Shown here in pieces: positions 11,987 through 30,500 of a DNA stretch of 64,000 nucleotides. Both the position numbers and the translations under genes were made by a program. Origin of the DNA: a virus. Lineage: Duplodnaviria > Heunggongvirae > Uroviricota > Caudoviricetes. A model generated the notes under the pieces. The model was given only the letters and a program-made list of their open reading frames with translations, was not told the DNA's origin and did not search any database. The stretch lies in IMG/VR virus record IMGVR_UViG_3300032665_000003. One strand, given 5' to 3'. Position 1 is the first letter of the stretch; each line of letters starts with the position of its first letter.

Positions 11987-12037
11987 AAGAGTCTCCTTAC
12001 GTGACTATTTATCTTTGTTTGGTGCCGGCACCAAGGA

Positions 12038-12843: not shown

Positions 12844-12859
12844 CGTAAAAGGAAAGCTA

Positions 12860-13454: not shown

Positions 13455-13506
13455 ATGATATTAAACACCATAAATTAGATTCTCATATTGATTAGATAAA
13501 TAAATC

Positions 13507-15157: not shown

Positions 15158-15232
15158 TGGTGCCTAGAACAGGATTGAACTGCCGGCCTTCGCTTTACGA
15201 AAGCGCTGCTATACCAATTCCGCCACCTAGGC
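15158..15232 (-). tRNA. tRNA with anticodon loop TTCGTAA (CGT, Thr-like); the anticodon stem is atypical
   Basis: Acceptor GCCTAGG, T-arm GGCAG-TTCAATC-CTGTT, CCA encoded. The anticodon arm GCGCT-TTCGTAA-AGCGA has a G.A closing pair. Confidence 0.6.
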
Positions 15233-15241
15233 ATATTTTAT

Positions 15242-15466
15242 TTAGGATTTAGGTCCGTATTTTTCCATAAGGGCCAGATAGTCGTCAAGAATAACTTGTG
15301 CCTTTTGGCAGGCACTAAAACTTTGTTCACATGCCGGAAGCTTTCCGCCAGCAGCAGAAAAACCGGCAAACCAATGCCTCAATCGCTTCATTTCTTCGAC
15401 TGTATGCGACACGTACAGCTTTGTATGCTTGTCCAAATCCTTTTCAAGCGCGGTCTTCTTAGTCAT
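15242..15466 (-). CDS. hypothetical protein (74 aa)
   Basis: ORF track. Confidence 0.3.
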   Translation of the reverse strand: MTKKTALEKDLDKHTKLYVSHTVEEMKRLRHWFAGFSAAGGKLPACEQSFSACQKAQVILDDYLALMEKYGPKS

Positions 15467-15479
15467 TGTATTTTATCTT

Positions 15480-16157: not shown

Positions 16158-16177
16158 TTGAGTACCTCTTAGATGAT

Positions 16178-16253
16178 GGTGCCCGCACTAGGATTTGAAC
16201 CTAGGACCCCAGGTTTATGAGACCTGCGCTACTGACCACTGAGCTATACGGGC
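16178..16253 (-). tRNA. tRNA with anticodon CAT, probably tRNA-Ile2 (lysidine) given the adjacent tilS; otherwise elongator Met
   Basis: GCCCGTA/TGCGGGC acceptor; anticodon arm CAGGT-CTCATAA-ACCTG; T-arm CTAGG-TTCAAAT-CCTAG; CCA encoded. Lies 21 nt upstream of the tilS start on the same strand. Confidence 0.75.
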
Positions 16254-16493
16254 ATATTTCTTTAATTTTATCATAACAGATATAAAAAAATTGTCAACCG
16301 GGTTTTTTATTTTCTTTATGGTTGCGACGAGTTAGACCTTTTCTATATCCTATAGGAATTTCGTCCAATGGCGAAATTGATTTGTTAATCACTCCGTTAG
16401 TTATTCTGACTTTGTTTTTAGAGGCTAATGATCTTTTTCTGTTGGCTTCTTGGTGTTCAACTGAATCCGTATTTTTTGGTTTACCTTTATTCG

Positions 16494-16931
16494 CTAACCC
16501 GCCTTTTTAGCTCTTTCTCGCATGGCGTTCGTATAGGAACTATATTCTTCCTCCGTCATTCTGCTGACGTACTCTAAATAAGCTTTTTTGGCCAGAAGAC
16601 TGCGTTCTTCTACTGTTGTTTTTTCTATCCTTGCCAGAGCGCCCTTAAGGGCGCTCTCTTTGGTAAACCCTCCCACTCCGCCCAATCTCATATTATAATT
16701 TGAATGTTCGTTAAAGTTTTCGGTTAGCTTTCGTTCTAAATCATATGCTTCCGTTCGGGTTTCGGATATTAAAAGAATTTCCTTTCGAAAATTTTCTTTT
16801 CCATATTTTGAAATTGCGTTTTTTATTGCAGTTCCGCTCCCGTAATACGAATCCATTGGCTTGTTGGTCTTATGAACTCCTATATAGGTTTTGCTGTTAA
16901 CCAAATTAGTAATTCTATAAACAGTATACAT
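16494..16931 (-). CDS. GIY-YIG homing endonuclease
   Basis: MYTVYRITNLVNSKTYIGVH ... YYGSG. Confidence 0.7.
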   Translation of the reverse strand: MYTVYRITNLVNSKTYIGVHKTNKPMDSYYGSGTAIKNAISKYGKENFRKEILLISETRTEAYDLERKLTENFNEHSNYNMRLGGVGGFTKESALKGALARIEKTTVEERSLLAKKAYLEYVSRMTEEEYSSYTNAMRERAKKAG

Positions 16932-16986
16932 GCGAAATTTTCTCCGAATGTATTTAACATGTCGCAACCTAAACACTTAGATTTTT

Positions 16987-17061
16987 TGGTGCCCCATGAC
17001 AGAATCGAACTGCCGACCTTCGCTTTACGAAAGCGCTGCTATACCTCTTAGCTAATAGGGC
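16987..17061 (-). tRNA. tRNA with anticodon loop TTCGTAA (CGT), paralogue of 15158..15232
   Basis: Identical anticodon arm and a different acceptor (GCCCTAT/ATGGGGC); T-arm GGCAG-TTCGATT-CTGTC; CCA encoded. Confidence 0.6.
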
Positions 17062-17062
17062 G

Positions 17063-17446
17063 TTAGTTATTTACTGTGTTGTCGCCGTGAAACTGTCCGT
17101 ATATACAATGGATAAATTCGTGACCAACAAACTCTGGTTGGTAAGTCACGCTAGGATCCATCATGTGAATTGTGCATGTATCATAACTAGGAGGTTGCAG
17201 CAGGCTAAATGCTACTACGTTAGTAGAATTTACTTTATGATCTGATGCCGTAGTACTCTTATTGAGATACCCTGCTACTACTCGGTTTAATTCCGAAGGT
17301 GATTTATATGTAACTATCTTAATCGTAACTTCGTGCTTCTCGTACTGCTTTTGTTTAAAAGTATAACCATCAGCGCCAACTTGTGAACTTGAATTTGGCG
17401 TACATGCTGCTAACGCAAGCACAGCGATGCATAGTAATTTTTTCAT
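17063..17446 (-). CDS. lipoprotein with an HExxH motif (HEFIHCIYGQFHG); possible small zinc metallopeptidase
   Basis: Signal peptide plus lipobox LAACT; HEFIH motif. Confidence 0.45.
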   Translation of the reverse strand: MKKLLCIAVLALAACTPNSSSQVGADGYTFKQKQYEKHEVTIKIVTYKSPSELNRVVAGYLNKSTTASDHKVNSTNVVAFSLLQPPSYDTCTIHMMDPSVTYQPEFVGHEFIHCIYGQFHGDNTVNN

Positions 17447-18071
17447 AAGAGTATCCTCCCATATTATTTATCTAATGATAAATATGAATATAATGATAAA
17501 TATGAATATGGACACTACAGATTTTCGTAAACTACTTAACCTATTTGAAGCACGTAATCCTAATTTGGAGTACGAGGACGAACCTAACGGTAAAAAGGTC
17601 ATTGCTAGACTTAAGAGCTATAATAGCCAAATATATACAAAGCTTGCACAAAAACTTGCAAGAATTGATGAATTGGAATCAGAAGTCAAATATCTTAAAG
17701 CTGCCGTAAAGGATGAAGCTAAAGAAAATGTGAGTGATTTGTTTGACGCAGAAGATGCCGTTCGCACTAGAGTTGTTGAGACTCTTAGCTTTATCTTTAC
17801 GTTGACTAAGGATCCGGAAGAAACTAGAACTCCAAAGTACAAAGATATTTTAACTGAATTAGAGAAGCATCTAACACCTGAATTGATCGTAGTGTTAGAG
17901 GGGCTTAAAAAGCAAATGGTTACAGTGACTCAAAAAAGTCCTGCAATGTCAGTAAAGCCAATCAAAGAAGCTGTAGGAGATGTGTTCTCTCGACTAAAAC
18001 AGACTATTTTGGGTTGGGCTAAAGATTACGATAGACAGCTTGATGCACTTAAAGCAGAAGCCGGTATGTAA
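17427..18071 (+). CDS. hypothetical protein; the true start may be the internal Met near 17508
   Basis: ORF track. Confidence 0.35.
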   Translation: MHSNFFIRVSSHIIYLMINMNIMINMNMDTTDFRKLLNLFEARNPNLEYEDEPNGKKVIARLKSYNSQIYTKLAQKLARIDELESEVKYLKAAVKDEAKENVSDLFDAEDAVRTRVVETLSFIFTLTKDPEETRTPKYKDILTELEKHLTPELIVVLEGLKKQMVTVTQKSPAMSVKPIKEAVGDVFSRLKQTILGWAKDYDRQLDALKAEAGM

Positions 18072-18077
18072 CTAATT

Positions 18078-18161
18078 TGGTAGGGGCGGAGGGAGTCGAA
18101 CCCCCAATCCTTTCGGAAGCTGCTTTTGAGACAGCCGCGTAGACCATTCCGCCACGCCCCC
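18078..18161 (-). tRNA. tRNA-Leu (CAA), type II
   Basis: Anticodon arm GCTGT-CTCAAAA-GCAGC, variable arm TTCCGAAAGGAT, T-arm GGGGG-TTCGACT-CCCTC, CCA encoded. Confidence 0.7.
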
Positions 18162-18207
18162 ACATCATTTATACCCTGGACAATTCCACCATCGGGGCAT
18201 TATATAT

Positions 18208-18292
18208 TGGTGCGAGTAGAGGGAGTCGAACCCCCACGCCTTTCGGCGCTGGTACCTAAAACCAGTGCGTCTACCAATTCCGCCATACTCGC
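18208..18292 (-). tRNA. tRNA-Leu (TAG), type II
   Basis: Anticodon arm CTGGT-TTTAGGT-ACCAG, variable arm CGCCGAAAGGCGT, T-arm GGGGG-TTCGACT-CCCTC, CCA encoded. Confidence 0.75.
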
Positions 18293-18431
18293 ATAAAACT
18301 TACTGGGGTTCCTCATTTTTAGAGACCGTCACCCCCTTAAAAGCTTACTAATAGCAGTATTGTGCTGCCTAGTTTCTCCTCAACCGTATATCTCATTCTG
18401 CAGGGCTTGCAATAATCACCTACAGTAAAAA

Positions 18432-18483
18432 TGGTGTCTCCCGGCGACTTGACGCCTTTAGCACGCTATGAACCTGAGGAGAC
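18432..18483 (-). ncRNA. tRNA-like minihelix: a 7-bp acceptor stem (GTCTCCT/GGGAGAC), a T-arm-like hairpin (GGCG-TCAAGT-CGCC) and 3' ACCA, with no D or anticodon arms
   Basis: Folded by hand. Resembles a tRNA top half or a tmRNA TLD fragment. 52 nt. Confidence 0.25.
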
Positions 18484-18609
18484 ATAAATGGTGTTGCCCT
18501 TCGGTAATGATCCGAAACCTCGAGATTTTCGGTCTCGCGTGCAGACCATCTACACTAGAGCAACATGAATTCTGCGGACTTACGGTGTTCTTCACCCGCC
18601 GAGTTATTT

Positions 18610-18680
18610 TGGTGGAGACGGAGGGAATCGAACCCTCCCTGCTGAACTGCCAGCCCGGCGTTAAGCCCACTTACGTCCCC
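18610..18680 (-). ncRNA. non-canonical short tRNA-like gene (about 68 nt plus CCA); the anticodon region is unclear
   Basis: Acceptor GGGGACG/CGTCTCC, perfect T-arm GGAGGG-TTCGATT-CCCTCC, A discriminator, encoded CCA. The central region does not give a standard D/anticodon fold. Confidence 0.35.
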
Positions 18681-18755
18681 ATAATCTCTCGGGTAGCTGC
18701 ACACTACCCTTCCTCGTCAGAACCATTGTGCAGGGTACCAACGAGAGTATCCTCT

Positions 18756-19139
18756 CTACATGAATAGCTTCAAGGCTTTCAAATCTTCACCGATCAAGTC
18801 TTCTCGAATAGGACCGAGTCCTAAACAAGTAACAGTCGGTTCGTTGAATACCGTGAACCCAGCGTCTTTAACTAACGAGACACCGCATACATTCTTGTAT
18901 GCCTCTTGAATCACTTCTAGTTCGGCTACCGTGTCAACAATAAGAGTGATCTTATACGCATGATCACTGTTCTTGTACTGGATTGCTTGAAGATTGCAGT
19001 CCGAAGAAACCTCAAGACTAACTGCATTCCAATAAGCATGAAGGTATGCGTGACCTGCCATAGAAGCAAGCTTTCCGCGATTACCTTTCATCTTGTCTAC
19101 GCTTTCTTTAGCGAAGATGCAGTACATTTTCAGTTTCAT
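18756..19139 (-). CDS. pth2: peptidyl-tRNA hydrolase, PTH2 family (start trimmed to MKLKM)
   Basis: N-terminal KMYCIFAKESVDKMKGNRGKLASMAGHAYLHAY resembles the PTH2 signature KMvlvvRtDLkMgKGKiAAQ.sHAa. Confidence 0.5.
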   Translation of the reverse strand: MKLKMYCIFAKESVDKMKGNRGKLASMAGHAYLHAYWNAVSLEVSSDCNLQAIQYKNSDHAYKITLIVDTVAELEVIQEAYKNVCGVSLVKDAGFTVFNEPTVTCLGLGPIREDLIGEDLKALKLFM

Positions 19140-19157
19140 ATTTCCTCGCTGGTATGT

Positions 19158-19231
19158 TGGATGAGGGGCCAGGACTCGCACCTGGATCTTCTGATTCAGA
19201 GTCAAATATCCTACTATTAGACGAACCCTCA
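19158..19231 (-). pseudogene. degenerate tRNA: good acceptor and T-arm (CCAGG-TGCGAGT-CCTGG), but the anticodon arm is replaced by an 11-nt palindrome TCTGAATCAGA
   Basis: Folded by hand. Confidence 0.35.
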
Positions 19232-19239
19232 ATTAAATT

Positions 19240-19331
19240 TGGCGGAGAGTGAGGGATTTGAACCCCCGGTACTTATTTCTAAGTACGTCGGTTTTCGAGA
19301 CCGCCACCTTCGGCCGCTCGGTCAACTCTCC
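19240..19331 (-). tRNA. tRNA-Ser (CGA), type II
   Basis: Anticodon loop CTCGAAA; long variable hairpin CGTACTTAGAAATAAGTACC; GGGGG-TTCAAAT-CCCTC T-arm; CCA encoded. Confidence 0.7.
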
Positions 19332-19340
19332 GTAGTTAAA

Positions 19341-19429
19341 TGGTCAGGGTAGCAGGATTCGAACCTGCGTGAACGATTCCGCCTCTCGTTTCCAAAACGA
19401 GCGCTCCGACCTGGCTGAGCTATACCCTG
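19341..19429 (-). tRNA. tRNA with anticodon TGG (Pro-like) but an unusually long variable region of about 16 nt
   Basis: Perfect acceptor CAGGGTA/TACCCTG; anticodon arm CTCGT-TTTGGAA-ACGAG; variable region AGGCGGAATCGTTCAC; T-arm GCAGG-TTCGAAT-CCTGC. Confidence 0.5.
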
Positions 19430-19583
19430 ATAATTTGGCCGTCAGGAAATTTTCTCTCCGGCAGTCACTAGTAAACTGCTACCGCTGCGGGACCTGACGA
19501 TAAACTGTCGCCCCTACTCTATCTTTCTCTCGATTACTTTCGGTGTTGGATACCAAACATACGTGATAGGGGCATAAACTTAT

Positions 19584-19671
19584 GGCGGAGCGTTAGAGAT
19601 TCGAACTCTATACCCGTAAGGTACCTTTCGCTTTCCAAGCGAAGACAGATCCTATCTGCTTACCCACTCCG
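19584..19671 (-). tRNA. tRNA-Ser (GGA), type II
   Basis: Anticodon arm TTCGC-TTGGAAA-GCGAA; long variable arm; T-arm TAGAG-TTCGAAT-CTCTA; CCA encoded. Confidence 0.65.
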
Positions 19672-19756
19672 TATTATGGTGGCCCTCAATCCTAATTATA
19701 TAATCACCTAAGTGAGTTGATAGTCGGGGCATAAACTTTGGTGTGCAATGCGCAAT

Positions 19757-19835
19757 TTGGTGGGTCTAATTGGAATCGAACCCACGTCTGCTGCTTTGGA
19801 GACAGCGGTACTACTATTGTACGAAGTGCGCATGA
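19757..19835 (-). pseudogene. tRNA-like sequence (anticodon arm GCTGT-CTCCAAA-GCAGC would give CCA/Trp); the acceptor stem does not pair
   Basis: Good D-arm (GTAC-AATAGTA-GTAC), anticodon arm and T-loop GGGTTCGATTCC, but 5'/3' acceptor complementarity is absent. Flanked by more tRNA-like debris at 19680-19940. Confidence 0.25.
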
Positions 19836-19953
19836 TAAAGTCGTATTGGCTAGCGGAATCAAACCGCTTTTGGGGCACCCAAGTCCTATAGAGACGATTC
19901 GAACGTCACACCCTTTCCCACCAAGGAAAACCACCTAGGACCAATACTATAAA

Positions 19954-20030
19954 TGGCGCAATCAGAGGGATTCGAACCCCCAACCCTCAGATTCGTAGTC
20001 TGATGCTCTCATCCGTTGAGCTATGACTGC
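19954..20030 (-). tRNA. tRNA-Arg (ACG)
   Basis: Anticodon arm TCAGA-CTACGAA-TCTGA; T-arm GGGGG-TTCGAAT-CCCTC; CCA encoded. Confidence 0.75.
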
Positions 20031-20050
20031 ATACTTTAATATGCTATATT

Positions 20051-20127
20051 TGGCGAATCCTGACAGATTTGAACTGCCGACCCTCGCGTCCGAAGCGCGA
20101 TGCTCTAGTCCGCTGAGCTAAGGATCC
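20051..20127 (-). tRNA. tRNA-Arg (TCG)
   Basis: Anticodon arm TCGCG-CTTCGGA-CGCGA; T-arm GGCAG-TTCAAAT-CTGTC; CCA encoded. Confidence 0.7.
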
Positions 20128-20133
20128 GTAATA

Positions 20134-20207
20134 TGGTGCCGACGAAGGGGATTGAACCCTTGACCTCAGTCTTACCAAGACTGCGCACTACCACTGTGCT
20201 ACGTCGG
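20134..20207 (-). tRNA. tRNA-Thr (GGT); its 5' end overlaps the last codons of the HNH gene
   Basis: Anticodon arm CAGTC-TTGGTAA-GACTG; T-arm AAGGG-TTCAATC-CCCTT; CCA encoded. Confidence 0.75.
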
Positions 20208-20696
20208 CTTATTTTTGTACCGGTGCGTTCGACCATTTCCCCTGTTTTTTCCTTTAAAGGAATCAGTTTGACTATGACAGTTTGGACAAAGCAACCTTAA
20301 ATTATCTATATGATTGTTATTAGGATTACCATCTGAATGATCACATTCTAGTGTGATTGGGAGATCGTTCCATTGCTCTAATTTACACCACTGACATTTG
20401 GCTCCATGCAACGCTATTAAAGTTCGGCGCGCCCATGCCGGAAAACCCATGCTATCAAATGCACCGGTTATCAACCAATTTTTAATTTTTTCAGCAGACT
20501 GGTATTCTGCTTGACATTTATTAGAACAAAACTTTTGCTTGACGCCACATTGTTTCTCGCATTTCAAACACGAAGGTATATTTGTTCGGGCTCTACCTCT
20601 ACTAATAGAGTATCTTCCGCCTTCCCGATGAACACTTTTATGTCCATTCAATTGACGGAACGTTTCAAACTCTTTACCGCAGTGACATACGTGCAT
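20199..20696 (-). CDS. HNH homing endonuclease
   Basis: CDHSDGNPNNNHIDNLRLLCPNCH, plus an N-terminal C2H2-like zinc finger (HVCHCGKEF). Confidence 0.7.
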   Translation of the reverse strand: MHVCHCGKEFETFRQLNGHKSVHREGGRYSISRGRARTNIPSCLKCEKQCGVKQKFCSNKCQAEYQSAEKIKNWLITGAFDSMGFPAWARRTLIALHGAKCQWCKLEQWNDLPITLECDHSDGNPNNNHIDNLRLLCPNCHSQTDSFKGKNRGNGRTHRYKNKPT

Positions 20697-20767
20697 AAGC
20701 TTTGTCCTAGCTCAGTTATTTATGCCTATTAATAGGTATGTTGTATGAGCTAACACGGCATATAATT

Positions 20768-20840
20768 TGGCTGTCCCCCAAGGACTCGAACCTCGATAAT
20801 CCGCACCAAAAACGGATGTCTTACCATTAGACGAAGGGAC
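20768..20840 (-). tRNA. tRNA-Gln (TTG); the anticodon stem/loop boundary is ambiguous (9-nt loop, or a 6-bp stem with a G.T pair)
   Basis: TGTCCCT acceptor; D-arm TCTA-ATGGTA-AGA; anticodon region ATCCGTTTTTGGTGCGGAT; T-loop TTCGAGT; CCA encoded. Confidence 0.6.
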
Positions 20841-20947
20841 AATAATACTTGATATTTATATACGAATACTATGATTATAAGAAAACACATTGACGTGTTG
20901 CTTCAACGAGGTTCGTAGCCCAGTGACTGTGTTTAAGTCCTATGTTT

Positions 20948-21537: not shown

Positions 21538-22089
21538 ATGAATTTCGATGCATTTTCTCACGGACAGATTCAAAGTAAACTTTGGCTCTGCAATGAACTT
21601 GAACCCTACGTCCCTAAAAGCGCAAAAGTTGCTATCTTAGGTAGTTGGTACAACGTACTATCATTTATGCTTCTTACACGCAATCCTAATTTATATCAAC
21701 ATATTTTGGGCATTGATATAGATGCAAGCACGAAGCCTATTGCAGACAGAATCACCGATGCTTGGTGTATCGACTCGACTGTCACTAACATCATTGCTGA
21801 CGCCAGTACGTATGATTTAGCTTCTTTCGATATTGTTGTCAACTGTTCACCTGAACATATGTCCACAAATGAATGGTTTGAAAATTTGGATTACGGAAAA
21901 CTTGTATGTATTCAATCTAGTGATGTAACCATTGACAATGATGATATTTGGAAGTGCGTCAATCCTAATGAGTCATTAGATGCCTTAACAAAAAAATACC
22001 CTCTATCAAAGTATCTTTTTTCGGGGACGAAAGAAATTAGATACTCCGACGGAGGGTATAATCGTTTTATGCTAATCGGTATTAAGTAA
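21538..22089 (+). CDS. possible class I SAM-dependent methyltransferase-like protein
   Basis: Rossmann-like motif KVAILGSWYN ... GIDID ... FDIVVN. Start set at the Met after the late promoter. Confidence 0.35.
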   Translation: MNFDAFSHGQIQSKLWLCNELEPYVPKSAKVAILGSWYNVLSFMLLTRNPNLYQHILGIDIDASTKPIADRITDAWCIDSTVTNIIADASTYDLASFDIVVNCSPEHMSTNEWFENLDYGKLVCIQSSDVTIDNDDIWKCVNPNESLDALTKKYPLSKYLFSGTKEIRYSDGGYNRFMLIGIK

Positions 22090-22558
22090 TCTTACCAATA
22101 GCGGCTATCGCAGCAGCAATTTTCACAATTGCTGATTTTGCCTTAACATTTATGCCGCCGTTTGTTAGCAGACTCGAATAATAATTGATTAATTTTTCGT
22201 GCTGCATAGCGATGGCTGCTGCAAAAGCATATGCGTTGTGATTTGGTTGATTCCAATCATTGGTCAATCCACCAGTATATTGAGGATATGACATGCATGT
22301 CGCTTCCATAACTAGAAGCACTGCTACTTTCTTTGCTATTTCTCTTTCGTCGGATCCGAAAAGTGGACCATTCATAGAAATTTCAAATGCCAAACCACCA
22401 TTAGCAGTTGCGGTAGCAGCAGCAAGAGCACAACCGTGAACAGTTATTTCATCTAACTGTGCTACCGCATCATCTATGGAGTATTGTAGCGTTTCAGCCA
22501 CAGATTCCGCATATTCCGGAATAGTACCCTTTACGTCATCAATCCAATTTCGAGTCAT
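22082..22558 (-). CDS. hypothetical Ala-rich protein (158 aa), translationally coupled (TAATG) to the upstream MqsA-like gene
   Basis: ORF track; stop/start overlap at 22556-22560. Confidence 0.45.
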   Translation of the reverse strand: MTRNWIDDVKGTIPEYAESVAETLQYSIDDAVAQLDEITVHGCALAAATATANGGLAFEISMNGPLFGSDEREIAKKVAVLLVMEATCMSYPQYTGGLTNDWNQPNHNAYAFAAAIAMQHEKLINYYSSLLTNGGINVKAKSAIVKIAAAIAAIGKIT

Positions 22559-23016
22559 TATTTTCCTAAAGCAGGGCAGTATAGTCGTAGTTGATCTTTT
22601 CCTTCACCCGGGGCATCGGCAGCCAGCAGGGCGCAGGCGTTGTGGCGGACAAGATGATCCGAATAGTCACCCACACCCTTTCCCCCATCCTTCTCCCAAC
22701 GAGAGGCTGTCTCAGCCGTGATACCCATCGTCTCGGCAAATTCCTTTTGCGTCATGTCCAAAGCACGGCGCAGCAGACGCATATCACCCGCGTTCAGTTT
22801 GATCGGCAGCAGGCAACGAGCCACAGCCACCGTCCGCACTAGACCCCGCATGTCCGGGATCATGGTCATCTCGTCCGCACATCCAGCGCAGCGACGCACG
22901 TGGACGGTGTTTTTCAGGCACACCTCAATTCCGCCGACATCCTCCAGGTGCTCCGGGAGGATGTACTCCTCATAGTGGCCATTGCCACATTCCGTGCATG
23001 TCGTCGTAGTGTTCAT
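22558..23016 (-). CDS. MqsA/YgiT-family zinc-finger plus XRE-type HTH protein (antitoxin-like), located in a visibly GC-rich island
   Basis: N-terminal CTECG...CAGC zinc ribbon, then LRRALDMTQKEFAETMGITAETASRWEKG, which closely parallels E. coli MqsA RKKLSLTQKEASEIFGGGVNAFSRYEKG. GC content is clearly above the rest of the window. Confidence 0.65.
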   Translation of the reverse strand: MNTTTTCTECGNGHYEEYILPEHLEDVGGIEVCLKNTVHVRRCAGCADEMTMIPDMRGLVRTVAVARCLLPIKLNAGDMRLLRRALDMTQKEFAETMGITAETASRWEKDGGKGVGDYSDHLVRHNACALLAADAPGEGKDQLRLYCPALGK

Positions 23017-23239
23017 TTTCTTTTACCAGCCCAGCCCGTAATTACCTTGCATGTCCTGACCAACCGTGTAGTTGCCTGCTGGAAGATGCTCATGCAAATC
23101 CATCGCATCCTTAGAAGTAACGCGCCAATTCGTGCCCGATTTTAAATAAAATGAAATAGCTTTTCTCCATCATAAATGTCTGATTGACATATCTATAATA
23201 TAGTAGCATCAAACCATTGTCAATAACAAAGATAAATAA

Positions 23240-23319: not shown

Positions 23320-23535
23320 TTATCTATTGCGAACAGCAGTATTTAAATTAGATATGTCAGTTTTTTGGCGGCGATAATGCCTCTGCATTAGGCCCAACTC
23401 AGACTGAACATTAGCTACTGTCTCTGCTAGTCTACGAATCTTTGATTCAAGTAGCTCGATTTGTTTTTCAACCGTAATGGGTTGAATGTGATCTACCTTC
23501 GTAGAAGAAGCCTCACTCTTATACATCTTTGACAT
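23320..23535 (-). CDS. hypothetical coiled-coil protein (71 aa)
   Basis: ORF track. Confidence 0.35.
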   Translation of the reverse strand: MSKMYKSEASSTKVDHIQPITVEKQIELLESKIRRLAETVANVQSELGLMQRHYRRQKTDISNLNTAVRNR

Positions 23536-23558
23536 TTTAGTTCCTTATTTTACTTGTG

Positions 23559-24455
23559 TCAATTGCGGGTTAACCCGTTTAACTTGAAGTTAACAAATCC
23601 TACGATGTGGTCTGCTACATTTATATTGCAATATCGTTCGAAGCCCTCAAAGCCTGGAGCTGAGTTTGCTTCACAAACTTTAAATCCGTTTTCATCAAAC
23701 AAGAGGTCTATCCCTGCAATTTGCAATCCGCAAACTCTAGCAGTCTCTCTCGCAATGTATTCAATTTCGTCGGTGACCTCAAATGTTTCACCGTGACCAC
23801 CATTTGAAATATTAGCACGGAAGTCACCGACTGGAGCAATACGTTTCATTGCCCCAATCACCTTGCCGCCCACAACAAACACTCTGAGGTCTTCACCTGG
23901 GCGGTGTCCTACGTATTCTTGTACTATTAAGGTTTTTGCACTTTTTAGACTATCAGTGAAGTCCATAAGCTTTTTGAAATCTTTTTTTCTTTCACATAGA
24001 TATACACCTTCACCATAGCTTCCACTAATCACTTTTACTATGCAAGGCCAACCAATATTTCTATCTACAATATCAACTTCAACTGGAAACCTAACTAGCA
24101 TCGTATTTGGAATTGGAATTCCATTGCTCACTAGTAATTGTGATGTTCTAAGTTTATCTTTAGCAATCTCAATTCCCTCAGAGGAATTTACACAAGGTGT
24201 TCCTTCTTCTTCAAACTGTCTGATCAAAGCCCTTGCAAACTCATTTGTACCTGATCCAGTTCTAGTCAACAAAAGTTTGGGTTTCTCAAGGGTCAATCCA
24301 TTGTAATTTATACCAGTTTCTATACCTTGCCTAACAACTAAATCAAAGTTTTCTGGATTGGCAAACTGTACGTTTATACCTTGGTTGGCAAAACTTTCTA
24401 GGAGACGAGCATTCTCATAATCCTTTTCTCTTTTGGTCAAAATTACTACAGACAT
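23559..24455 (-). CDS. rimK: RimK-like ATP-grasp ligase (alpha-L-glutamate ligase / glutathione-synthetase fold)
   Basis: MSVVILTKREKD ... VVKVISGSYGEGVYL ... LIVQEYV ... GAMKRIA ... CGLQIAGIDLLFDENGFKVCEANSAPGFEG is a typical RimK motif set. Start trimmed to MSVVIL. Confidence 0.6.
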   Translation of the reverse strand: MSVVILTKREKDYENARLLESFANQGINVQFANPENFDLVVRQGIETGINYNGLTLEKPKLLLTRTGSGTNEFARALIRQFEEEGTPCVNSSEGIEIAKDKLRTSQLLVSNGIPIPNTMLVRFPVEVDIVDRNIGWPCIVKVISGSYGEGVYLCERKKDFKKLMDFTDSLKSAKTLIVQEYVGHRPGEDLRVFVVGGKVIGAMKRIAPVGDFRANISNGGHGETFEVTDEIEYIARETARVCGLQIAGIDLLFDENGFKVCEANSAPGFEGFERYCNINVADHIVGFVNFKLNGLTRN

Positions 24456-24672
24456 ACTGAATCTTTCATACTGTGTATATTTATGACATTTCATATTTCA
24501 TATTTCATATTTCACGTCGTATTTAAGAATAAGATAACAAATTAGAGGATGATCATTAGTCATAAATTCAATGTTGTACCCATCAAACTTTTTTTGATAC
24601 GGCAGGTGTTTGATTCCCGATTCTCGTATTGCCTTATTAATTTGATGGAAAACCTAGGTTGGTACGAAAATT

Positions 24673-24983: not shown

Positions 24984-25517
24984 TTAGTTTTTCAGATATA
25001 CGAGGATGTTTTCAGGTGAAGATTCACCGTAGGGATCCGTATCGCAATTGTGTTCGATGCCAGGTTCAATAAACCACTTTTCAATGCGTCCATTGTCAAC
25101 GATTACCGCATATCGCCAAGAACGAACACCGAAACCCAAATTATCCTTAGCAACAAGCATGTTCATCTTGCTAGTGAATTCACCAGAACCATCCGGAATA
25201 ACCTTAACGTTCTTTAGATTTTGGTCTTGAGCCCACTTGTTCATGACGAACGAATCGTTCACTGACAAGCAGTAGATTTCGTCAATACCCAAATCCTTAA
25301 ATTGTTGATAGTTATTTTCAAAACCCGGAAGTTGGTAAGTAGAGCAAGTAGGGGTAAATGCTCCAGGCAGCGCAAATAGCACAACTCGCTTTCCTGCGAA
25401 ATAGTCAAATGAAGTTACTTCTTGCCAGCGATATGGATTGGGTCCTTCGATACTATCGTCACGAACCCGAGTCTTAAAGACTACGCTAGGGACTAGCGTA
25501 GGAAGGTCAGCACTCAT
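24984..25517 (-). CDS. peroxiredoxin, Prx5-like atypical 2-Cys (AhpC/TSA family)
   Basis: Motif VVLFALPGAFTPTCS. Start trimmed to MSADLPT. Confidence 0.7.
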   Translation of the reverse strand: MSADLPTLVPSVVFKTRVRDDSIEGPNPYRWQEVTSFDYFAGKRVVLFALPGAFTPTCSTYQLPGFENNYQQFKDLGIDEIYCLSVNDSFVMNKWAQDQNLKNVKVIPDGSGEFTSKMNMLVAKDNLGFGVRSWRYAVIVDNGRIEKWFIEPGIEHNCDTDPYGESSPENILVYLKN

Positions 25518-25567
25518 AATGTCTCCTTTATAATAATGACATATACTACAACTTAATGCAGTATATG

Positions 25568-25873
25568 TCAATTATTATGGGACAGCAGGTCTTCCTTAGT
25601 CATAGTAAAACGAGATTTAACCCAAGCATCACGCATGACTTGCAGCCGTTGACCAACTTCCTTGCCAGGCTTCATACCAGTTTCCAGCAGGTCTTGTCCT
25701 TTAATCGGAAAGATCGGAGGAACATAGCATTCGGCATAGTCGGGACTTTGATCTTGCAGCAGAGCCCAAGAAACTGCCCAATCACGTCGAACACCGTCAA
25801 CCAGACGCAGTTGAAAAACACGGGAAGTGAATTCCTCGTGCAGCGATTTCAGTTCTTGTGTGATCATGTCCAT
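25568..25873 (-). CDS. small protein resembling the C-terminal domain of class II tRNA nucleotidyltransferases (CCA-adding enzyme / poly(A) polymerase)
   Basis: PIKGQDLLETGMKPGKEVGQRLQVMRDAWVKSRF compares with I.G.DL.alG.kPGp..G..L......ql.g. Confidence 0.3.
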   Translation of the reverse strand: MDMITQELKSLHEEFTSRVFQLRLVDGVRRDWAVSWALLQDQSPDYAECYVPPIFPIKGQDLLETGMKPGKEVGQRLQVMRDAWVKSRFTMTKEDLLSHNN

Positions 25874-26049: not shown

Positions 26050-27513
26050 TTAAGCAATTATTCCTTGAACTACTTTACCTGCAGTATCAGTTAAACGGAA
26101 ATCTCTACCTTGATAATGGTATGTAAGTTGTTTGTGATCAATTCCTAAAAGATATAACACAGTAGCATTTAAATCGTGAACTTCTACTGGATTTTCCACA
26201 ACATTATAAGAGAAATCATCTGATTTGCCGTATTCGATGCCAGGTTTTGTTCCGCCTCCGGCCATCCACATCGTAAAGTTTCCTCCGTGATGGTCACGCC
26301 CGCAGTTTGGATTTATTCCTCCTTGCGCGTATACAGTTCTACCGAATTCACCCTTCCAAGTTACAAGAGTATCATCTAGAAGTCCTCGCTGCTTTAAATC
26401 CGTCACCAAAGCAGCAGATGGCTGATCTACTGCCCAACAGTCACTAGGATGTCGGCGGGCAATACCATTATGGTGATCCCATCCAACTTGAATTAGGTTG
26501 ACATACTTAACACCGCGTTCAATAAGACGACGTGTTAATAGGCAATTGCGAGCAAAGCTACCTGGTTGATGAACCTGAGGACCATACATATCGAGTATAT
26601 ATTGTGGTTCATCAGATAGATCAGTTACCTCAGGTACAGAATCTTGCATACGATATGCCATTTCATATTGAGCAATTTTGGCTAAGACTTCTGGGTCATC
26701 GGTCGTCTGATACTGATAGCGCGATAATTCACCGATAAGATCAATTTGACTTCTTCGTTCTTCACGACTAATGCCATCTGGATTGCTTACATAAAGAACA
26801 GGAGAATTACCAGAACGAAATTCAACACCTTGGTGATTAGAGGGCAAAAATCCTGCTGACCAAGTAGCCTGAGTAGCGCCAACCCCTGCTGATTGGAACT
26901 GAGATTTCATGACTACATATGAAGGGAGATTAGAGTTATCAGTCCCTAATGCATAATTAACCCATGCTCCAGCGGCAGGGCGGCCCGCTAATTGAAACCC
27001 AGTATGCATGAGAATGTCTGCTGGATCGTGATTAACTTGGGGAGTCCATATAGAATGAATGAAGGTTAGATCATCTGATATAGACCCTATATGTGGCATT
27101 AGGTCTGAAACCCAACGACCACATTGACCATATTGTTTATATGGAGCAATAGGACCCATAAGAGGGAAAGAAGTTTGTCCATTAGACATTGATGATATTT
27201 TGCCATGACCCTTTACAGAAGGTGGAATTTCTTGCCCATGGCGCTTGATAACTTCTGGCTTATAATCAAAAGTATCAATTTGGGATACTGCTCCTTTCAT
27301 GTGAATGTCAATTACACGCTTTGCTCTTGCTGGAAATTGACCTGTAGTTAACTTACCTAAATCTGGGCCAGTCTCGCTGGAAGGTGCAGCACTGGCTGCT
27401 TGTGATTTGGTAGCACCTAATAATTCGGCGCCGGCTATCACACCCAATCCCATACTCGTGCCTAAAAGTGACCGGCGGGCAAAATTTATTAATTCATTTG
27501 GATCATTATTCAT
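26050..27513 (-). CDS. DUF1501 family protein (sulfatase / alkaline-phosphatase-like fold) with a Tat signal peptide
   Basis: Twin-arginine motif FARRSLLGTSMGLGVIAGA. The C-terminus GRDHHGG...GGG...GIEYGKSDD...VHDLNATVLYLLGIDHKQLTY..GRDFRLTD is typical of DUF1501. Confidence 0.8.
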   Translation of the reverse strand: MNNDPNELINFARRSLLGTSMGLGVIAGAELLGATKSQAASAAPSSETGPDLGKLTTGQFPARAKRVIDIHMKGAVSQIDTFDYKPEVIKRHGQEIPPSVKGHGKISSMSNGQTSFPLMGPIAPYKQYGQCGRWVSDLMPHIGSISDDLTFIHSIWTPQVNHDPADILMHTGFQLAGRPAAGAWVNYALGTDNSNLPSYVVMKSQFQSAGVGATQATWSAGFLPSNHQGVEFRSGNSPVLYVSNPDGISREERRSQIDLIGELSRYQYQTTDDPEVLAKIAQYEMAYRMQDSVPEVTDLSDEPQYILDMYGPQVHQPGSFARNCLLTRRLIERGVKYVNLIQVGWDHHNGIARRHPSDCWAVDQPSAALVTDLKQRGLLDDTLVTWKGEFGRTVYAQGGINPNCGRDHHGGNFTMWMAGGGTKPGIEYGKSDDFSYNVVENPVEVHDLNATVLYLLGIDHKQLTYHYQGRDFRLTDTAGKVVQGIIA

Positions 27514-27524
27514 GTTTATTCCTC

Positions 27525-30500
27525 TTAGTGCAAAGTATATGCGTCTGGGGTATTCATGACGCTTGCAGTGACCATAGTCATTGCTGCGAGTTGGGCCGGA
27601 TCAATCGAAGTATCGGTAGGAGAAACCCCCATAGAAAGTATCTTTTTTACTTCATCAGGGGAATTCTGCATTCTGCTAATTTCAGCAACACGATATTTCC
27701 TCAATACTGATAGTTCATTATCATTTGGATGGCGCCGAACAGCCAAACGGAACATCGTTATCAGTTGTTGATCTTGATTTGCAGAAGACTTGATTGCTCT
27801 TTCAGATAGCTTACGATAAGCTTCCATAAATTGAACGTCATTCAACATAACCAATGATTGCAGAGGTGTAGTTGACACTGGACGTAGAACTTGTGCATTG
27901 TAGCGATCTGGCATGTCAAACGGTACTAAGTTGGCTACTGGTGAGTTCCGCTTTATATAGGTATACATAGATCGTCTGTGCATTTGATCATCCGGTTCAT
28001 TTGTAGGATAAATAACCGCACCTTGCGCTACACCATCCCAAATTGCATCTGGAGCATATGGGAATACTGCATCTCCGCCCACTTTCTTAAGTAACAGACC
28101 AGAGGCAGCTAATGCATTATCACGAATAACTTCTGCTGGCATTCTAAAACGTGGTCCTCGTTCTAGAAGAAAATTTCGTGGATCTTTTTCTAATGCGTCA
28201 TGCGTAATATTAGAATTTTGACGATAAGTTGCAGACATAACTATTAGTTTTTGTATGTGCTTTATATCCCAACCAGACCTAATAAACTCTACGGCTAGGT
28301 AATCAAGTAGTTCCGAATGAGTTGGATTAGTTCCTTGTGTACCAAAATCATCTACCGTTTGAACTATACCAGTACCGAAATGATTTTGCCATATGCGGTT
28401 TACATAAACCCTAGCAACGAGCGGATTTTTCGGATCAAACATCCATTCAGTTAGTCCCAAACGGTCTCTAGGTAAAGTTTCGTTCCATGCAAATACTCGG
28501 TTCGGTGCCTGAGGTTTTACTTCTTGTAGATAGCTGTTATAGACCCCACGATCTAACACGAAGTTTTTACGAGGAATAGCCTGATCTCCTGCAACCATGA
28601 CACGATAGATCGGAGTTTCTATGCGTTGTTCAGCAAGTCGTGCATCTGTCATCTCTTGCCAGGCTCGTTGAACCGCAGGATCCAGTTCAGCCATAATTAA
28701 CTTCATATCAGATATTGCTTGCTGTGCCGGAACTTGTTTAAGTAGTGCAGGATCCTGCAGATAAGTAATTTCCGTAGGAGTCAATGCCCGTGTAATCACA
28801 CGTAGCTCATCAATGGCGCCGTCTACTAATTCCGGTCTATTAAAGTTAACTCCAGCAGACAACCCAAAATAACTCACAAACTGACTGTTTCCGCCGCGCG
28901 GAAATGCGCTACGTGTTAAGTGGTCATGATCAATTTGAGCTTTTTGTTCTACACCATCAAAATATAGATGCATACCAGCCGCTTTGGAGTTACCGTCATA
29001 AGTAGAAGTTATATGAACCCAACGACCTGTGGGAACATCTTGAATCGTAGAAATTCTAAGCATGTCGGTTGGAGCTTGGTGAGTAATAGAATATGCCATT
29101 TTATTATTAGACATGGTTAATTCATAACCAAGCCCTTCAATGCCGCCGTTGTTATAAATTATAGATGCAGACGGTCCTAATGGACGAGTATTGTCGTAAT
29201 ATGGTTTCTTTGGAAGCTTCAACCAAAAATCTAATGTGTATGGTTGAGTTCTTTCAAACATACCTACACTTTTGTCCGCAGCAAAAACTGAATCTTTTAG
29301 TTGAATTCCCTGTCCCTTGTGACCGGAAACAAACTTTACATTACTTACAAATCCACGCTTTTCACCCTGAATCCCTGCATCTGTCCACAACAGTGAATCT
29401 TCATGAATCCATTGTGGAAGTTGACGTTTCATGATACGTTGTGGGTCTCCTAAACGATCATCAGTAAATCCGGATGCTACAAGCTGTTCCATAGCCCAAT
29501 CGATTTCATGAGAAGCTATTCTCGGAAGATTAGGGTCCGCCTTCATTGCAGCAATGTCTCCGTCCATACCGCCGAATCGTGAGCGGCGAAGGGGTGCTTT
29601 TTTAGGGTCCTTTATATCTGAAGACTTGATGGTTTTAGGAGACATAGAATCATCTTTAGGTGTCATACTAGGAGTTGGTTTACCGACCTTTACATCTGCA
29701 AGAATTTTATTTTGTAATATGGCAGTAACTTGAGCCGCAGTTAATCCGGGAAAGTTATTTTTTTGATTAGGTAGAGGTTCACCAGGTGCCGTTGGTTGCG
29801 GATCTAGGTACAGTTCATCAAATGAATCTTTGTACCCTGCATCTAATGGATAATAGGCTTGTGTGTCTGCTTGAATAGATGATTGTATAAATGTTGTTCG
29901 GTTTGTGTCTAATGCTATTTTATTGATCTGCGCAGATTGTAAAGCAACTTGATAAGCTTGTTCTTTAGCTACTGTAATTGCATGGGCGGCCTCAAGTCTT
30001 TTTGATTGCAGCGGAGTCGGCCATTCGATTGTGGCGCCGCCGGGTGTACCACGAGAACCGGATCCTTGTCCTCGCTCGTCCATCTGATTAAAGAATCCAG
30101 CTAATGAATAGTAATCTGATTGGGCAATCACATCATATTTGTGATTGTGGCATTTGGCGCACCCAACGGTTAGACCCAAAAAGTCTTTACCTATTAATTC
30201 TGTTCTTTCTTGGACATAATTAGTTCTAAATTCTTCATCAATTGATCCGCCCTCTGAATCTTGACGACCTTCTTTAAGGAAGGCACTTGCAAGTAATTGC
30301 TCACGAGTCGGATGACCATTATTAAGTTTATCGCCGGCAAGCTGCCAGGTCACAAACTCATCATAAGGCATGTTGCGTTTAAACGCATTGATGACCCAAT
30401 CACGATACGGGAAACTGATTCCTCGTTCCCCGTCATTTAGTCCTCCGCGGCTGTCTGCATACCGAGCAACATCCATCCAAATATTTGTTTGGCGTTCTGC

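What the first reader, a model, noticed from the sequence alone, without database searches (positions are those of the whole stretch)
22082..23160. GC-rich foreign island encoding an MqsA-like antitoxin homologue without an intact toxin
**Seen in sequence.**
- The 152-aa ORF has an N-terminal CxxC...CxxC zinc ribbon and an HTH (TQKEFAETMGITAETASRWEKG) that closely parallels E. coli MqsA.
- Its DNA is visibly far more GC-rich than anything else in the window, which points to recent horizontal acquisition.
- Upstream, where mqsR would sit, only about 30-codon ORF stubs remain in similarly GC-rich DNA.
- Downstream, a 158-aa phage-composition ORF is translationally coupled by a TAATG overlap.

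**Inference.** An orphan antitoxin retained by a phage is a plausible anti-defence device that neutralises a host MqsR-like toxin. Alternatively the 158-aa partner could be a novel toxin or effector.
Basis: partly seen in the sequence, partly recalled or inferred. Interest (0 to 1): 0.75.

Follow-up and report, generated by a model that had tools for sequence, protein, structure and literature searches.

The report
Captured bacterial antitoxin fragment in phage
A very large phage carries about 440 bases of unmistakably bacterial DNA: the tail end of a toxin gene plus three quarters of its antidote (antitoxin) gene. This fragment overwrote the middle of one of the phage's own genes, so the phage may have stolen an antidote to a bacterial suicide-defence toxin, but that function is untested.

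Summary
The 152-aa ORF (22558..23016, minus strand) has CxxC...CxxC plus an HTH. It lies in the most GC-rich stretch of the window (57% against 41.3 +/- 3.5%; GC3 68% against 27-38% in phage genes).

It belongs to an alphaproteobacterial MqsA-type antitoxin subfamily (61-68% identity to Phenylobacterium-like proteins; best fold match E. coli MqsA). In bacteria this gene always follows, with an ATGA overlap, a DUF4258 (RelE/ParE-superfamily) toxin gene.

Both junctions are mapped. Bacterial DNA spans about 22608..23048: the last 11 toxin codons (KVITGWAGKRK*) plus antitoxin codons 1-136. It replaced the interior of a conserved jumbo-phage AAA ATPase gene, whose 5' (23157..23032) and 3' (22610..22566) remnants flank it. 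Most of the "upstream stub" is therefore phage DNA, not toxin.

The copy lacks the family's C-terminal helix and beta-hairpin. Its last 16 residues are an out-of-frame read of the ATPase remnant and are polymorphic (143 or 152 aa).

Related phages lack the island; one shows the empty site. The 158-aa downstream gene is a conserved phage AhpD-like gene, not a toxin partner.

Most likely function, inferred only: a toxin-less decoy antitoxin. A neutral recombination scar is nearly as likely.

The parts
23195..23223 (-). Sigma-70-like promoter (TTGACA-17-TATTAT, 11 of 12 matches) in the AT-rich spacer upstream of the ATPase remnant. It is the likely driver of transcription through the island into the AhpD-like gene.
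   Evidence: No minus-strand terminator-like site lies between it and 22082. Function is inferred.
23032..23157 (-). 5' remnant (42 codons) of a conserved jumbo-phage AAA ATPase gene. The start codon is ATT where relatives have ATG, and TGA lies immediately upstream in frame.
   Evidence: tblastn of the L026 ATPase against the whole window: 67% identity, E = 1.9e-14. DNA is 75% identical. Alignment with six relatives.
23013..23048 (-). 3' remnant of the bacterial DUF4258-type toxin gene. It comprises the last 11 codons, KVITGWAGKRK, plus a TGA that overlaps the antitoxin ATG as ATGA, exactly as in the bacterial operons.
   Evidence: 10-11 residues, 91-100% identical to toxin C-termini of L001, L009, L013, L014. 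Partner toxins hit PF14076.
22608..23048 (-). The foreign (alphaproteobacterial) DNA fragment, about 440 bp. The left junction lies within CAAGGTAA (23049..23042) and the right junction within CCGGGTG (22611..22605). Each junction carries a few bases of microhomology.
   Evidence: blastn gives 71% identity to Phenylobacterium locus L001 over 23049..22622. GC 58%, GC3 68%. Flanking phage homologies.
22558..23016 (-). 152-aa chimeric ORF. Residues 1-136 are the MqsA-type antitoxin core. Residues 137-152 are an out-of-frame read of the ATPase 3' remnant.
22879..22998 (-). Zinc-ribbon domain (C7xxC10 ... C43xxC46), predicted as five beta-strands.
   Evidence: The four cysteines are invariant in the family alignment. 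Strands 14-52 of the AlphaFold model have pLDDT 85-88.
22618..22791 (-). XRE-type helix-turn-helix domain (helices 76-86, 90-97, 101-110, 117-133).
   Evidence: PF01381 scores 28.6 bits against a cut-off of 23. Model.
22566..22610 (-). 3' remnant of the phage AAA ATPase gene (RVKEKINYDYTALL*), in a different frame from the 152-aa ORF.
   Evidence: Best hit in the whole window for ATPase C-termini, E = 9e-7 to 5e-4. C-termini of 80 relatives.
22587..22587 (-). Polymorphic site: CGA (this window, 152 aa) or TGA (143-aa allele) at codon 144, inside the phage-derived tail.
22082..22558 (-). Neighbouring conserved phage gene: an AhpD/CMD-like protein lacking the catalytic CxxC. It is not part of the island and is probably co-transcribed with it.

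Best explanation
**What it is (shown).** About 440 bp of an alphaproteobacterial type II toxin-antitoxin operon (DUF4258 toxin followed by an MqsA-type antitoxin) recombined illegitimately into a virulent-looking jumbo phage.
- The bacterial fragment replaced roughly codons 43-338 of a conserved phage AAA ATPase gene.
- It brought in only the last 11 toxin codons and antitoxin codons 1-136, in the sense orientation.
- It lies downstream of the ATPase gene's sigma-70-like promoter and upstream of the co-directional AhpD-like gene.
- The resulting ORF encodes the complete zinc ribbon and HTH. That is everything equivalent to E. coli MqsA.
- It lacks the subfamily's C-terminal helix and beta-hairpin and ends in a meaningless, polymorphic tail.

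**How it most likely works (inferred).** The region is transcribed early with the operon. The toxin-less antitoxin core binds, through its zinc-ribbon domain, the DUF4258 RelE/ParE-fold toxin of the cognate host module. This would keep the toxin neutralised when infection depletes the host's labile antitoxin. It would be a hijacked antidote against toxin-antitoxin-mediated abortive infection.
For: **Origin**
- Composition.
- Nearest homologues are all bacterial and alphaproteobacterial at 45-68% identity; none occur in 50,697 phage records.
- The bacterial homologues are always preceded by an overlapping 87-106-aa DUF4258-like gene.
- The toxin C-terminus and ATGA overlap are preserved in the window.
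- ATPase remnants lie on both sides.
- Related phage L016 shows the empty site, and the island is absent from 13 related viral contigs.
- The island was present in every one of at least 24 independent contigs from at least 9 samples, so it is not an assembly artefact.

**Family**
- TIGR03830 E = 3.7e-12.
- Homologue P0008 passes that model's cut-off.
- The top Foldseek PDB hit is MqsA 3gn5, E = 1.8e-4.

**Function**
- The start codon, the four zinc cysteines and 36 of 37 family-invariant positions within residues 1-136 are retained.
- The fragment is in sense orientation behind a promoter-like site with no intervening terminator-like site.
- Capturing almost exactly the antitoxin core without the toxin is improbable for a random fragment (inference).
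- In E. coli the MqsA zinc domain alone neutralises MqsR (PMC2791442).
- DUF4258 is a RelE/ParE-superfamily toxin family known to be fused with MqsA (PMC11980606).
- Phages are known to hijack or carry orphan antitoxins (PMC3475682, PMC11825919).
Against: - No functional test has been done, and the host and its toxin-antitoxin content are unknown.
- The copy lacks about 49 C-terminal residues. In the full-length bacterial model these form a confidently predicted helix and beta-hairpin with invariant W176, A184 and A185. pTM is 0.84 for the full-length model against 0.70 for the phage copy. If that element binds the toxin or stabilises the protein, the phage copy is dead.
- Both ends cut through genes, as expected of an accident.
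- There is no recognisable Shine-Dalgarno sequence before the ATG. The original translational coupling partner is reduced to short stub ORFs.
- The acquisition is so recent (unameliorated GC3; all carriers at least 99.5% identical; only 2 SNPs in the ORF) that an intact reading frame carries no information about selection.
- The island is found in one phage lineage only.
Confidence: 0.45

Rival explanations
1. Neutral or hitch-hiking recombination scar. The bacterial fragment is filler left by an illegitimate recombination or repair event that destroyed the ATPase gene. The ATPase loss itself may be what was tolerated or selected. The MqsA-like ORF is open only because the event is recent, and its product, if made, does nothing useful.
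For: - Both junctions cut through genes and show only a few bases of microhomology.
- The antitoxin lacks a conserved, confidently folded C-terminal element.
- The tail is polymorphic.
- There is no amelioration, and the island occurs in a single population of at least 99.5% identity.
- No homologue exists in other phages.
- Relative L016 has also lost the ATPase gene at this locus, so loss is tolerated.
- The ATPase remnant's start codon has decayed to ATT.
Against: - A random 440-bp bacterial fragment would rarely contain, in sense orientation behind a promoter, the start codon and both complete domains of an antitoxin while excluding the toxin (inference; roughly 1e-3 or less per fragment).
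- The island was present in all of at least 24 contigs read, from at least 9 samples.
Confidence: 0.35
2. Co-opted DNA-binding regulator. The phage uses the HTH domain, not toxin binding, to repress host or phage promoters, for example the host toxin-antitoxin operon or other genes carrying the cognate operator.
For: - The HTH_3 domain is intact and modelled with high confidence.
- MqsA is a DNA-binding repressor through this domain (PMC2791442).
- The bacterial operons share a palindrome, CTTGAT-N5-ATCAAG, upstream of the toxin gene; this is a presumptive operator.
Against: - The operator region was not co-transferred; only 33 nt lie upstream of the antitoxin start.
- The only match to the palindrome in 64 kb is the anticodon arm of tRNA-His, which is a coincidence.
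- Repressing the host operon would lower antitoxin supply and favour toxin release, which would hurt the phage (inference).
- How the loss of the C-terminal element affects dimerisation is unknown.
Confidence: 0.1
3. The MqsA-like gene and the downstream 158-aa gene form a new toxin-antitoxin or effector pair.
For: A TAATG overlap in this window.
Against: - The 158-aa protein is an AhpD/CMD-family protein with more than 200 homologues on jumbo-phage contigs.
- It occurs with the convergent 189-aa gene in relatives that lack the island.
- The overlap is absent in the 143-aa allele.
- It has phage composition, with GC3 of 0.29.
Confidence: 0.02
4. Assembly chimera or contamination: bacterial reads mis-joined into a phage contig.
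For: An abrupt change in composition.
Against: - The same junctions occur in at least 24 independently assembled contigs from JGI and Logan assemblies of different samples.
- The junctions fall inside recognisable remnants of one phage gene on both sides.
Confidence: 0.01

Closest known systems
E. coli MqsA (YgiT), antitoxin of MqsR/MqsA (PDB 3GN5, 3O9X; TIGR03830, PF15731)
   Same: [quoted passage not shown]
- It is the top structural match and the best NCBIfam match.
- In the bacterial relatives the toxin gene precedes and overlaps the antitoxin gene, as in mqsRA.
   Different: - Only about 20% identity, and the scores fall below the curated cut-offs.
- The partner toxin is DUF4258-type, not MqsR.
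- The bacterial subfamily has an extra C-terminal helix and beta-hairpin that MqsA lacks and that the phage copy has lost.
- The window has no toxin gene and no operator.
DUF4258 (PF14076) / MqsA-type modules of the RelE/ParE superfamily (PMC11980606)
   Same: - The bacterial homologues of the island are exactly such pairs.
- DUF4258-MqsA fusions are catalogued in that paper.
   Different: - The window keeps only 11 toxin codons and 136 of about 183 antitoxin codons.
- Activity of DUF4258 toxins is listed as unknown in that paper.
Phage PhiTE-F, which hijacked the ToxI antitoxin from the host's toxIN plasmid by recombination (PMC3475682)
   Same: A virulent myovirus acquires the antitoxin half of a host abortive-infection toxin-antitoxin system by recombination, partly overwriting its own sequence.
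   Different: - ToxI is an RNA antitoxin (type III), the event was selected in the laboratory, and function was shown.
- Here the antitoxin is a protein (type II), the event is natural, and function is untested.
Orphan antitoxin-like counter-defence proteins of phages: AdfN (DarG1-like NADAR) of T4-like phages (PMC11825919), the DarTG antitoxin mimic of vibriophages (PMC11481870), and T4 Dmd (own knowledge)
   Same: A phage-encoded, toxin-less homologue or mimic of an antitoxin.
   Different: - Those are full-length, conserved across phage clades and experimentally validated.
- This one is a truncated, very recent, single-lineage capture.

Membership tests
MqsA/YgiT antitoxin family (TIGR03830, PF15731) | N-terminal zinc ribbon with two CxxC pairs | tested here: met
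   C7xxC10 and C43xxC46 are invariant in the family alignment. A five-strand domain is modelled with pLDDT 85-88.
MqsA/YgiT antitoxin family (TIGR03830, PF15731) | C-terminal XRE-type HTH domain | tested here: met
   PF01381 scores 28.6 bits against a cut-off of 23. Four helices, residues 76-133.
MqsA/YgiT antitoxin family (TIGR03830, PF15731) | Score above the curated family cut-off | tested here: not met
   TIGR03830 scores 46.1 bits against a cut-off of 61.8 (E = 3.7e-12, model positions 1-101 of 127). PF15731 scores 16.4 against 30. Homologue P0008 (57% identical) does pass, at 67.2 bits. The subfamily therefore sits at the edge of the family.
MqsA/YgiT antitoxin family (TIGR03830, PF15731) | Fold matches solved MqsA | tested here: met
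   The top Foldseek PDB hit is 3gn5_A, E = 1.8e-4, probability 1.0, 144 aligned columns. It is one of only two hits at E <= 0.001. Global TM is only 0.29-0.33, probably because the two domains are oriented differently (inferred). The full-length bacterial homologue gives the same top hit.
MqsA/YgiT antitoxin family (TIGR03830, PF15731) | Encoded next to a RelE-superfamily toxin gene in one operon | tested here: not met
   Met in all bacterial homologues examined. In the window only 11 toxin codons remain.
MqsA/YgiT antitoxin family (TIGR03830, PF15731) | Neutralises its toxin and binds a palindromic operator | not testable with these tools
   A presumptive operator, CTTGAT-N5-ATCAAG, was found in the bacterial loci. 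It is absent from the window except within a tRNA-His stem.
DUF4258 toxin (PF14076, RelE/ParE superfamily) | Complete roughly 70-residue domain | tested here: not met
   Only KVITGWAGKRK* is left. The bacterial partners match PF14076 over positions 1-68/70 of 71. L011 passes the cut-off at 33.4 bits; the others score 18-21 bits against a cut-off of 25.
Phage orphan-antitoxin counter-defence (pseudo-ToxI/ToxI hijack, AdfN, Dmd) | Phage-encoded homologue or mimic of an antitoxin without its toxin | tested here: met
Phage orphan-antitoxin counter-defence (pseudo-ToxI/ToxI hijack, AdfN, Dmd) | The host carries the cognate toxin-antitoxin system, it restricts the phage, and the phage protein relieves the restriction | not testable with these tools
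AhpD/CMD family (PF02627, TIGR00777), for the 158-aa neighbour | Family-level sequence similarity | tested here: inconclusive
   There is no Pfam hit for the window protein itself, and TIGR00777 gives E = 4.9e-5, far below its cut-off. It is nevertheless homologous (35-55% identity) to 171-aa phage proteins that carry PF02627.
AhpD/CMD family (PF02627, TIGR00777), for the 158-aa neighbour | Catalytic CxxC motif | tested here: not met
   The window protein has AMQHEKLINYY where the 171-aa homologues have GKCxFCVKSH.
AAA ATPase (PF00004), for the disrupted phage gene | P-loop ATPase core present | tested here: not met
   Intact relatives hit PF00004 at 39.1 bits. The window keeps only 42 N-terminal and 14 C-terminal codons.

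The most novel reading that the evidence does not exclude
A virulent jumbo phage has, in nature and very recently, hijacked the antidote half of a host type II (DUF4258/MqsA-type) toxin-antitoxin defence module in a single illegitimate recombination event. The truncated zinc-ribbon-plus-HTH core is sufficient to neutralise the host toxin. It would be a protein-antitoxin counterpart of the laboratory PhiTE-F ToxI hijack, with both recombination junctions still legible. In the boldest version, the same event also removed a conserved phage ATPase that triggers the defence.
Probability: 0.35. Interest if true: 0.65.

Novelty: new member of a known kind. Interest (0 to 1): 0.45.

Why it matters
If the captured core is active, this is a natural, datable example of how phage counter-defence genes are born. 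A raw piece of a host defence operon would have been pasted into a phage gene, before any amelioration or tidying of gene boundaries.

It also offers a cheap experimental route into the uncharacterised DUF4258 toxins. It shows which part of their MqsA-type antitoxin may suffice for neutralisation.

If the fragment is inert, it is still a clean record of illegitimate host-to-phage DNA transfer. It also shows that a gene conserved in more than 200 jumbo-phage contigs is dispensable in this lineage. In that case it is of modest interest.

Tried and rejected
1. **Upstream stub as a decayed toxin gene.** I first read the whole upstream stub (23017..23135) this way. A weak collinear match (WRVTSKD against WRAQGPD) looked suggestive. 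The reading was rejected once the stretch proved to be the 5' end of a phage AAA ATPase gene.\n\n2. **Bacterial homology reaching D141.** The protein alignment suggested bacterial homology up to an 'invariant' D141. An 11-of-12 DNA match (ATCAACTACGAC) to the Phenylobacterium locus hinted at a frameshifted continuation. This was rejected: that stretch is the ATPase 3' end, RVKEKINYDYTALL*.\n\n3. **Phage databases.** INPHARED gave no match by DNA or protein. This phage is also absent from IMG/VR: an exact 30-mer was not found.\n\n4. **Island-free sibling.** A degenerate-codon pattern searched against JGI metagenomes found only one more island-bearing contig. All contexts of the exact AhpD-like protein carry the island.\n\n5. 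**Test of selection.** A dN/dS or SNP-based test is uninformative, with only 2 variable sites in the ORF.\n\n6. **Operator search.** The one hit in the window is the tRNA-His anticodon arm.\n\n7. **Defence-system models.** PADLOC gave nothing specific for the toxin or the antitoxin.\n\n8. **Profile against PDB sequences.** The family profile reached MqsA only at E = 0.3. The fold comparison was needed.
Full report
**1. Setting**

The window is part of a large tailed phage.
- It holds 30 tRNA genes (545..20841, all on the minus strand), ribonucleotide reductase, tail tube and tail sheath genes.
- Mean GC is about 41%.
- It has no near relative in INPHARED.
- The exact 158-aa neighbour protein occurs on contigs of up to 314 kb, so this is a jumbo phage.

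**2.

- ORF 22558..23016(-) encodes 152 aa with C7xxC10, C43xxC46 and the stretch TQKEFAETMGITAETASRWEKD.
- The 540-nt window 22601-23140 is 57.2% GC. The window-wide mean is 41.3% (sd 3.5), and the runner-up is 51.5%.
- GC3 of codons 1-136 is 0.68. Eight phage genes give 0.27-0.38, and the bacterial homologues give 0.63-0.81.
- The DNA is therefore foreign and not ameliorated.
- The TAATG overlap with the next ORF and the two roughly 30-codon upstream ORFs are present.

**3. What the protein is**

- Pfam gives HTH_3 above threshold and MqsA_antitoxin only weakly (E = 0.01).
- NCBIfam TIGR03830 (MqsA family, CxxCG_CxxCG_HTH) gives E = 3.7e-12 over model positions 1-101 of 127. The score is 46.1 bits, below the 61.8-bit cut-off.
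- A search of 5.8 billion proteins found only the phage's own alleles and nine other proteins of 177-185 aa at 53-68% identity; those with a source name or recovered context are bacterial. The named ones are Phenylobacterium, and JGI calls one of them a YgiT-family protein.
- In GTDB genomes every relative is from Alphaproteobacteria or unclassified Proteobacteria; named ones include Methylorubrum, Bradyrhizobium, Rhodoplanes and Sphingomonas.
- One homologue, P0008, passes the TIGR03830 cut-off.
- The AlphaFold model (pLDDT 81.6) shows a five-strand zinc ribbon, a linker helix and a four-helix HTH domain. Residues 138-152 have pLDDT below 50.
- The best Foldseek match in the PDB is E. coli MqsA (3gn5, E = 1.8e-4, probability 1.0). 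It is one of only two hits at E <= 0.001.
- The protein therefore works like an MqsA-type antitoxin in architecture. It belongs to a divergent alphaproteobacterial subfamily at the edge of the curated family.

**4. The bacterial context**

- In all five bacterial or metagenomic loci examined, the homologue is preceded by an 87-106-aa gene. That gene overlaps it by ATGA, or in one locus ends 10 nt upstream.
- These partners match Pfam DUF4258. L011 scores 33.4 bits, above the cut-off. The others score 18-21 bits but cover the full domain.
- DUF4258 is catalogued as a RelE/ParE-superfamily toxin family of unknown activity, and DUF4258-MqsA fusions are known (PMC11980606).
- The loci lie beside IS1595 transposases, a resolvase with an OLD nuclease, or a P22-type portal gene. 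They are therefore on mobile DNA.
- All five share the palindrome CTTGAT-N5-ATCAAG about 50 nt upstream of the toxin start. This is a presumptive operator.

**5. The junctions**

*Left side.*
- The 31-aa ORF ends ...KVITGWAGKRK* with its TGA overlapping the antitoxin ATG. This is identical to the C-terminus of the Phenylobacterium toxin (...KVITGWAGKRT*).
- DNA identity to that locus is 71% and runs from 23049 to 22622.
- Further upstream the homology switches to a phage gene. In related viral contig L026, a 353-aa AAA ATPase (PF00004) lies between the homologues of the 71-aa and 158-aa genes.
- Its first 42 residues match window 23157..23032 at 67% identity (E = 1.9e-14 against the whole window).
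- The homologous start codon is ATT in the window.

*Right side.*
- A different frame reads RVKEKINYDYTALL* (22610..22566). This matches the ATPase C-termini (TRVKEKALYDYSALAF*) and is the best hit in the window, at E = 9e-7.

*Conclusion.*
- About 440 bp of bacterial DNA (about 22608..23048) replaced roughly 890 bp of the ATPase gene's interior.
- Each junction has a few bases of microhomology (CAAGGTAA and CCGGGTG).
- Residues 137-152 of the ORF are an out-of-frame read of phage DNA. This explains their low model confidence.
- It also explains the CGA/TGA polymorphism at 22587, which gives the 152- and 143-aa alleles.

**6. Comparative evidence**

- Related phage contig L016 has the same gene order: peroxiredoxin, RimK-like ATP-grasp, small coiled-coil gene, AhpD-like gene, convergent 189-aa gene. 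Its coiled-coil gene overlaps the AhpD-like gene directly, with no island and no ATPase gene.
- None of the 13 related viral contigs has the MqsA-like gene.
- The ATPase has more than 200 relatives in IMG/VR. In seven of the contigs recovered here it lies within a few kb of the AhpD-like gene, and in L026 it lies immediately upstream of it.
- The island-bearing population was seen on at least 24 contigs from at least 9 samples, all at least 99.5% identical. The ORF has only two variable sites.
- This rules out an assembly artefact. It also means that the intact reading frame says nothing about selection.

**7. What is missing**

- The bacterial proteins continue for about 49 residues beyond the junction.
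- In the model of the Phenylobacterium protein (pLDDT 87.7, pTM 0.84) these residues form a helix and a beta-hairpin, with invariant W176, A184 and A185.
- The phage copy has none of this.
- Everything equivalent to the 131-aa E. coli MqsA is retained.
- In E. coli the zinc domain alone neutralises MqsR, and the HTH domain alone binds DNA (PMC2791442).

**8. The neighbours**

- The 158-aa ORF has more than 200 homologues. Most are 171-aa proteins on jumbo-phage contigs that carry PF02627 and are annotated as AhpD.
- Its own subclade has lost the catalytic CxxC.
- It has phage composition and is conserved without the island. It is therefore not a partner of the MqsA-like gene.
- A promoter-like site (11 of 12 matches) at 23223..23195(-) lies upstream of the ATPase remnant. 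No minus-strand terminator-like site follows it before 22082.
- Transcription of the AhpD-like gene therefore probably passes through the island (inference).

**9. Mechanism and rivals**

*Shown:* origin, donor class, junctions, and the loss of the toxin, of the operator and of the C-terminal element.

*Inferred:* function. I favour, at 0.45, a hijacked toxin-less antitoxin core that binds a host DUF4258 toxin during infection.
- The fragment contains almost exactly the start codon and both domains of the antidote.
- It lies in sense orientation behind a promoter and excludes the poison. That combination is unlikely for a random fragment.
- Phages are known to acquire or carry antitoxins. PhiTE-F hijacked ToxI by recombination (PMC3475682), and T4-like phages carry the orphan DarG-like AdfN (PMC11825919).

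*Scar rival, 0.35:* nearly as likely.
- The event looks accidental.
- The product is truncated.
- The acquisition is too recent for conservation to count as evidence.
- L016 shows that losing the ATPase gene is tolerated.

*Regulator rival, 0.1:*
- The operator was not co-transferred.
- The only palindrome match in the window is the tRNA-His anticodon arm.

*Other rivals:* the toxin-partner idea for the 158-aa gene and an assembly artefact are effectively excluded.

**10. Verdict**

The upstream stub and the downstream partner were misread. The anti-defence role remains a reasonable but untested hypothesis.

The kind of system is known: MqsA-type antitoxins, and orphan antitoxins in phages. 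What is new is a natural, fresh capture of a type II antitoxin fragment by a jumbo phage, with both junctions legible. Interest is moderate.

Noticed in passing
window 545..20841: A cluster of 30 tRNA genes, all on the minus strand, interspersed with HNH, GIY-YIG and NUMOD-type endonuclease-like ORFs. Several tRNAs are unusually long or have odd anticodons, for example tRNA-Phe(aaa), an 87-nt tRNA-Lys(ctt) and an 89-nt tRNA-Pro(tgg).
   Followed up: no
window 26050..31196 (-): A 1223-aa protein (PSCyt1, PSCyt2, Laminin_G_3, PSD1) followed by a 487-aa DUF1501 protein. From my own knowledge (not tested here), this gene pair is typical of Planctomycetes and Verrucomicrobia. Here it is in a jumbo phage with phage-like codon composition (GC3 0.27-0.30), which may hint at the host.
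   Followed up: partly
window 22082..22558 (-), 23559..24494 (-), 24984..25571 (-): A redox-looking module: peroxiredoxin, a RimK-like ATP-grasp ligase and an AhpD-like protein. The subclade containing this AhpD-like protein has lost the catalytic CxxC that the 171-aa phage AhpD homologues keep.
   Followed up: partly
L028-L107 (IMG/VR), e.g. L026:2879-3940: The AAA ATPase disrupted in this window is conserved in more than 200 jumbo-phage contigs, in seven of those recovered here within a few kb of the AhpD-like gene. It has been lost at this locus twice, by replacement here and by clean absence in L016. Its function is unknown.
   Followed up: partly
L001:5630-5650, L009, L011, L013, L014 (upstream of the toxin genes): A conserved palindrome, CTTGAT-N5-ATCAAG, lies about 43-59 nt upstream of the DUF4258 toxin start, often with a second copy about 90 nt further upstream. 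It is a presumptive operator of this MqsA-type subfamily.
   Followed up: partly
window 8785..8801: The only window match to that palindrome is the anticodon stem-loop of tRNA-His(gtg), which is a coincidence of tRNA structure.
   Followed up: yes
L001, L009, L011, L012/L013: The bacterial DUF4258/MqsA-type operons sit beside IS1595-family transposases (three loci), a resolvase with an OLD-family nuclease, a DNA methylase, or a P22-type portal gene. They therefore travel on mobile elements or prophages.
   Followed up: no
window 58379..62041 (-): A 1220-aa ORF whose only Pfam match is a C-terminal tail-sheath domain, which would make it an unusually long sheath-like protein. The ORFs of 1520 aa (46288..50850) and 837 aa (51492..54005) have no Pfam match.
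   Followed up: no
window 23534..23562 and 23195..23223 (-): Two near-consensus sigma-70-like promoter sites (11 of 12 matches each) lie ahead of the 71-aa gene and of the ATPase remnant. They suggest transcription of this block by host RNA polymerase.
   Followed up: no
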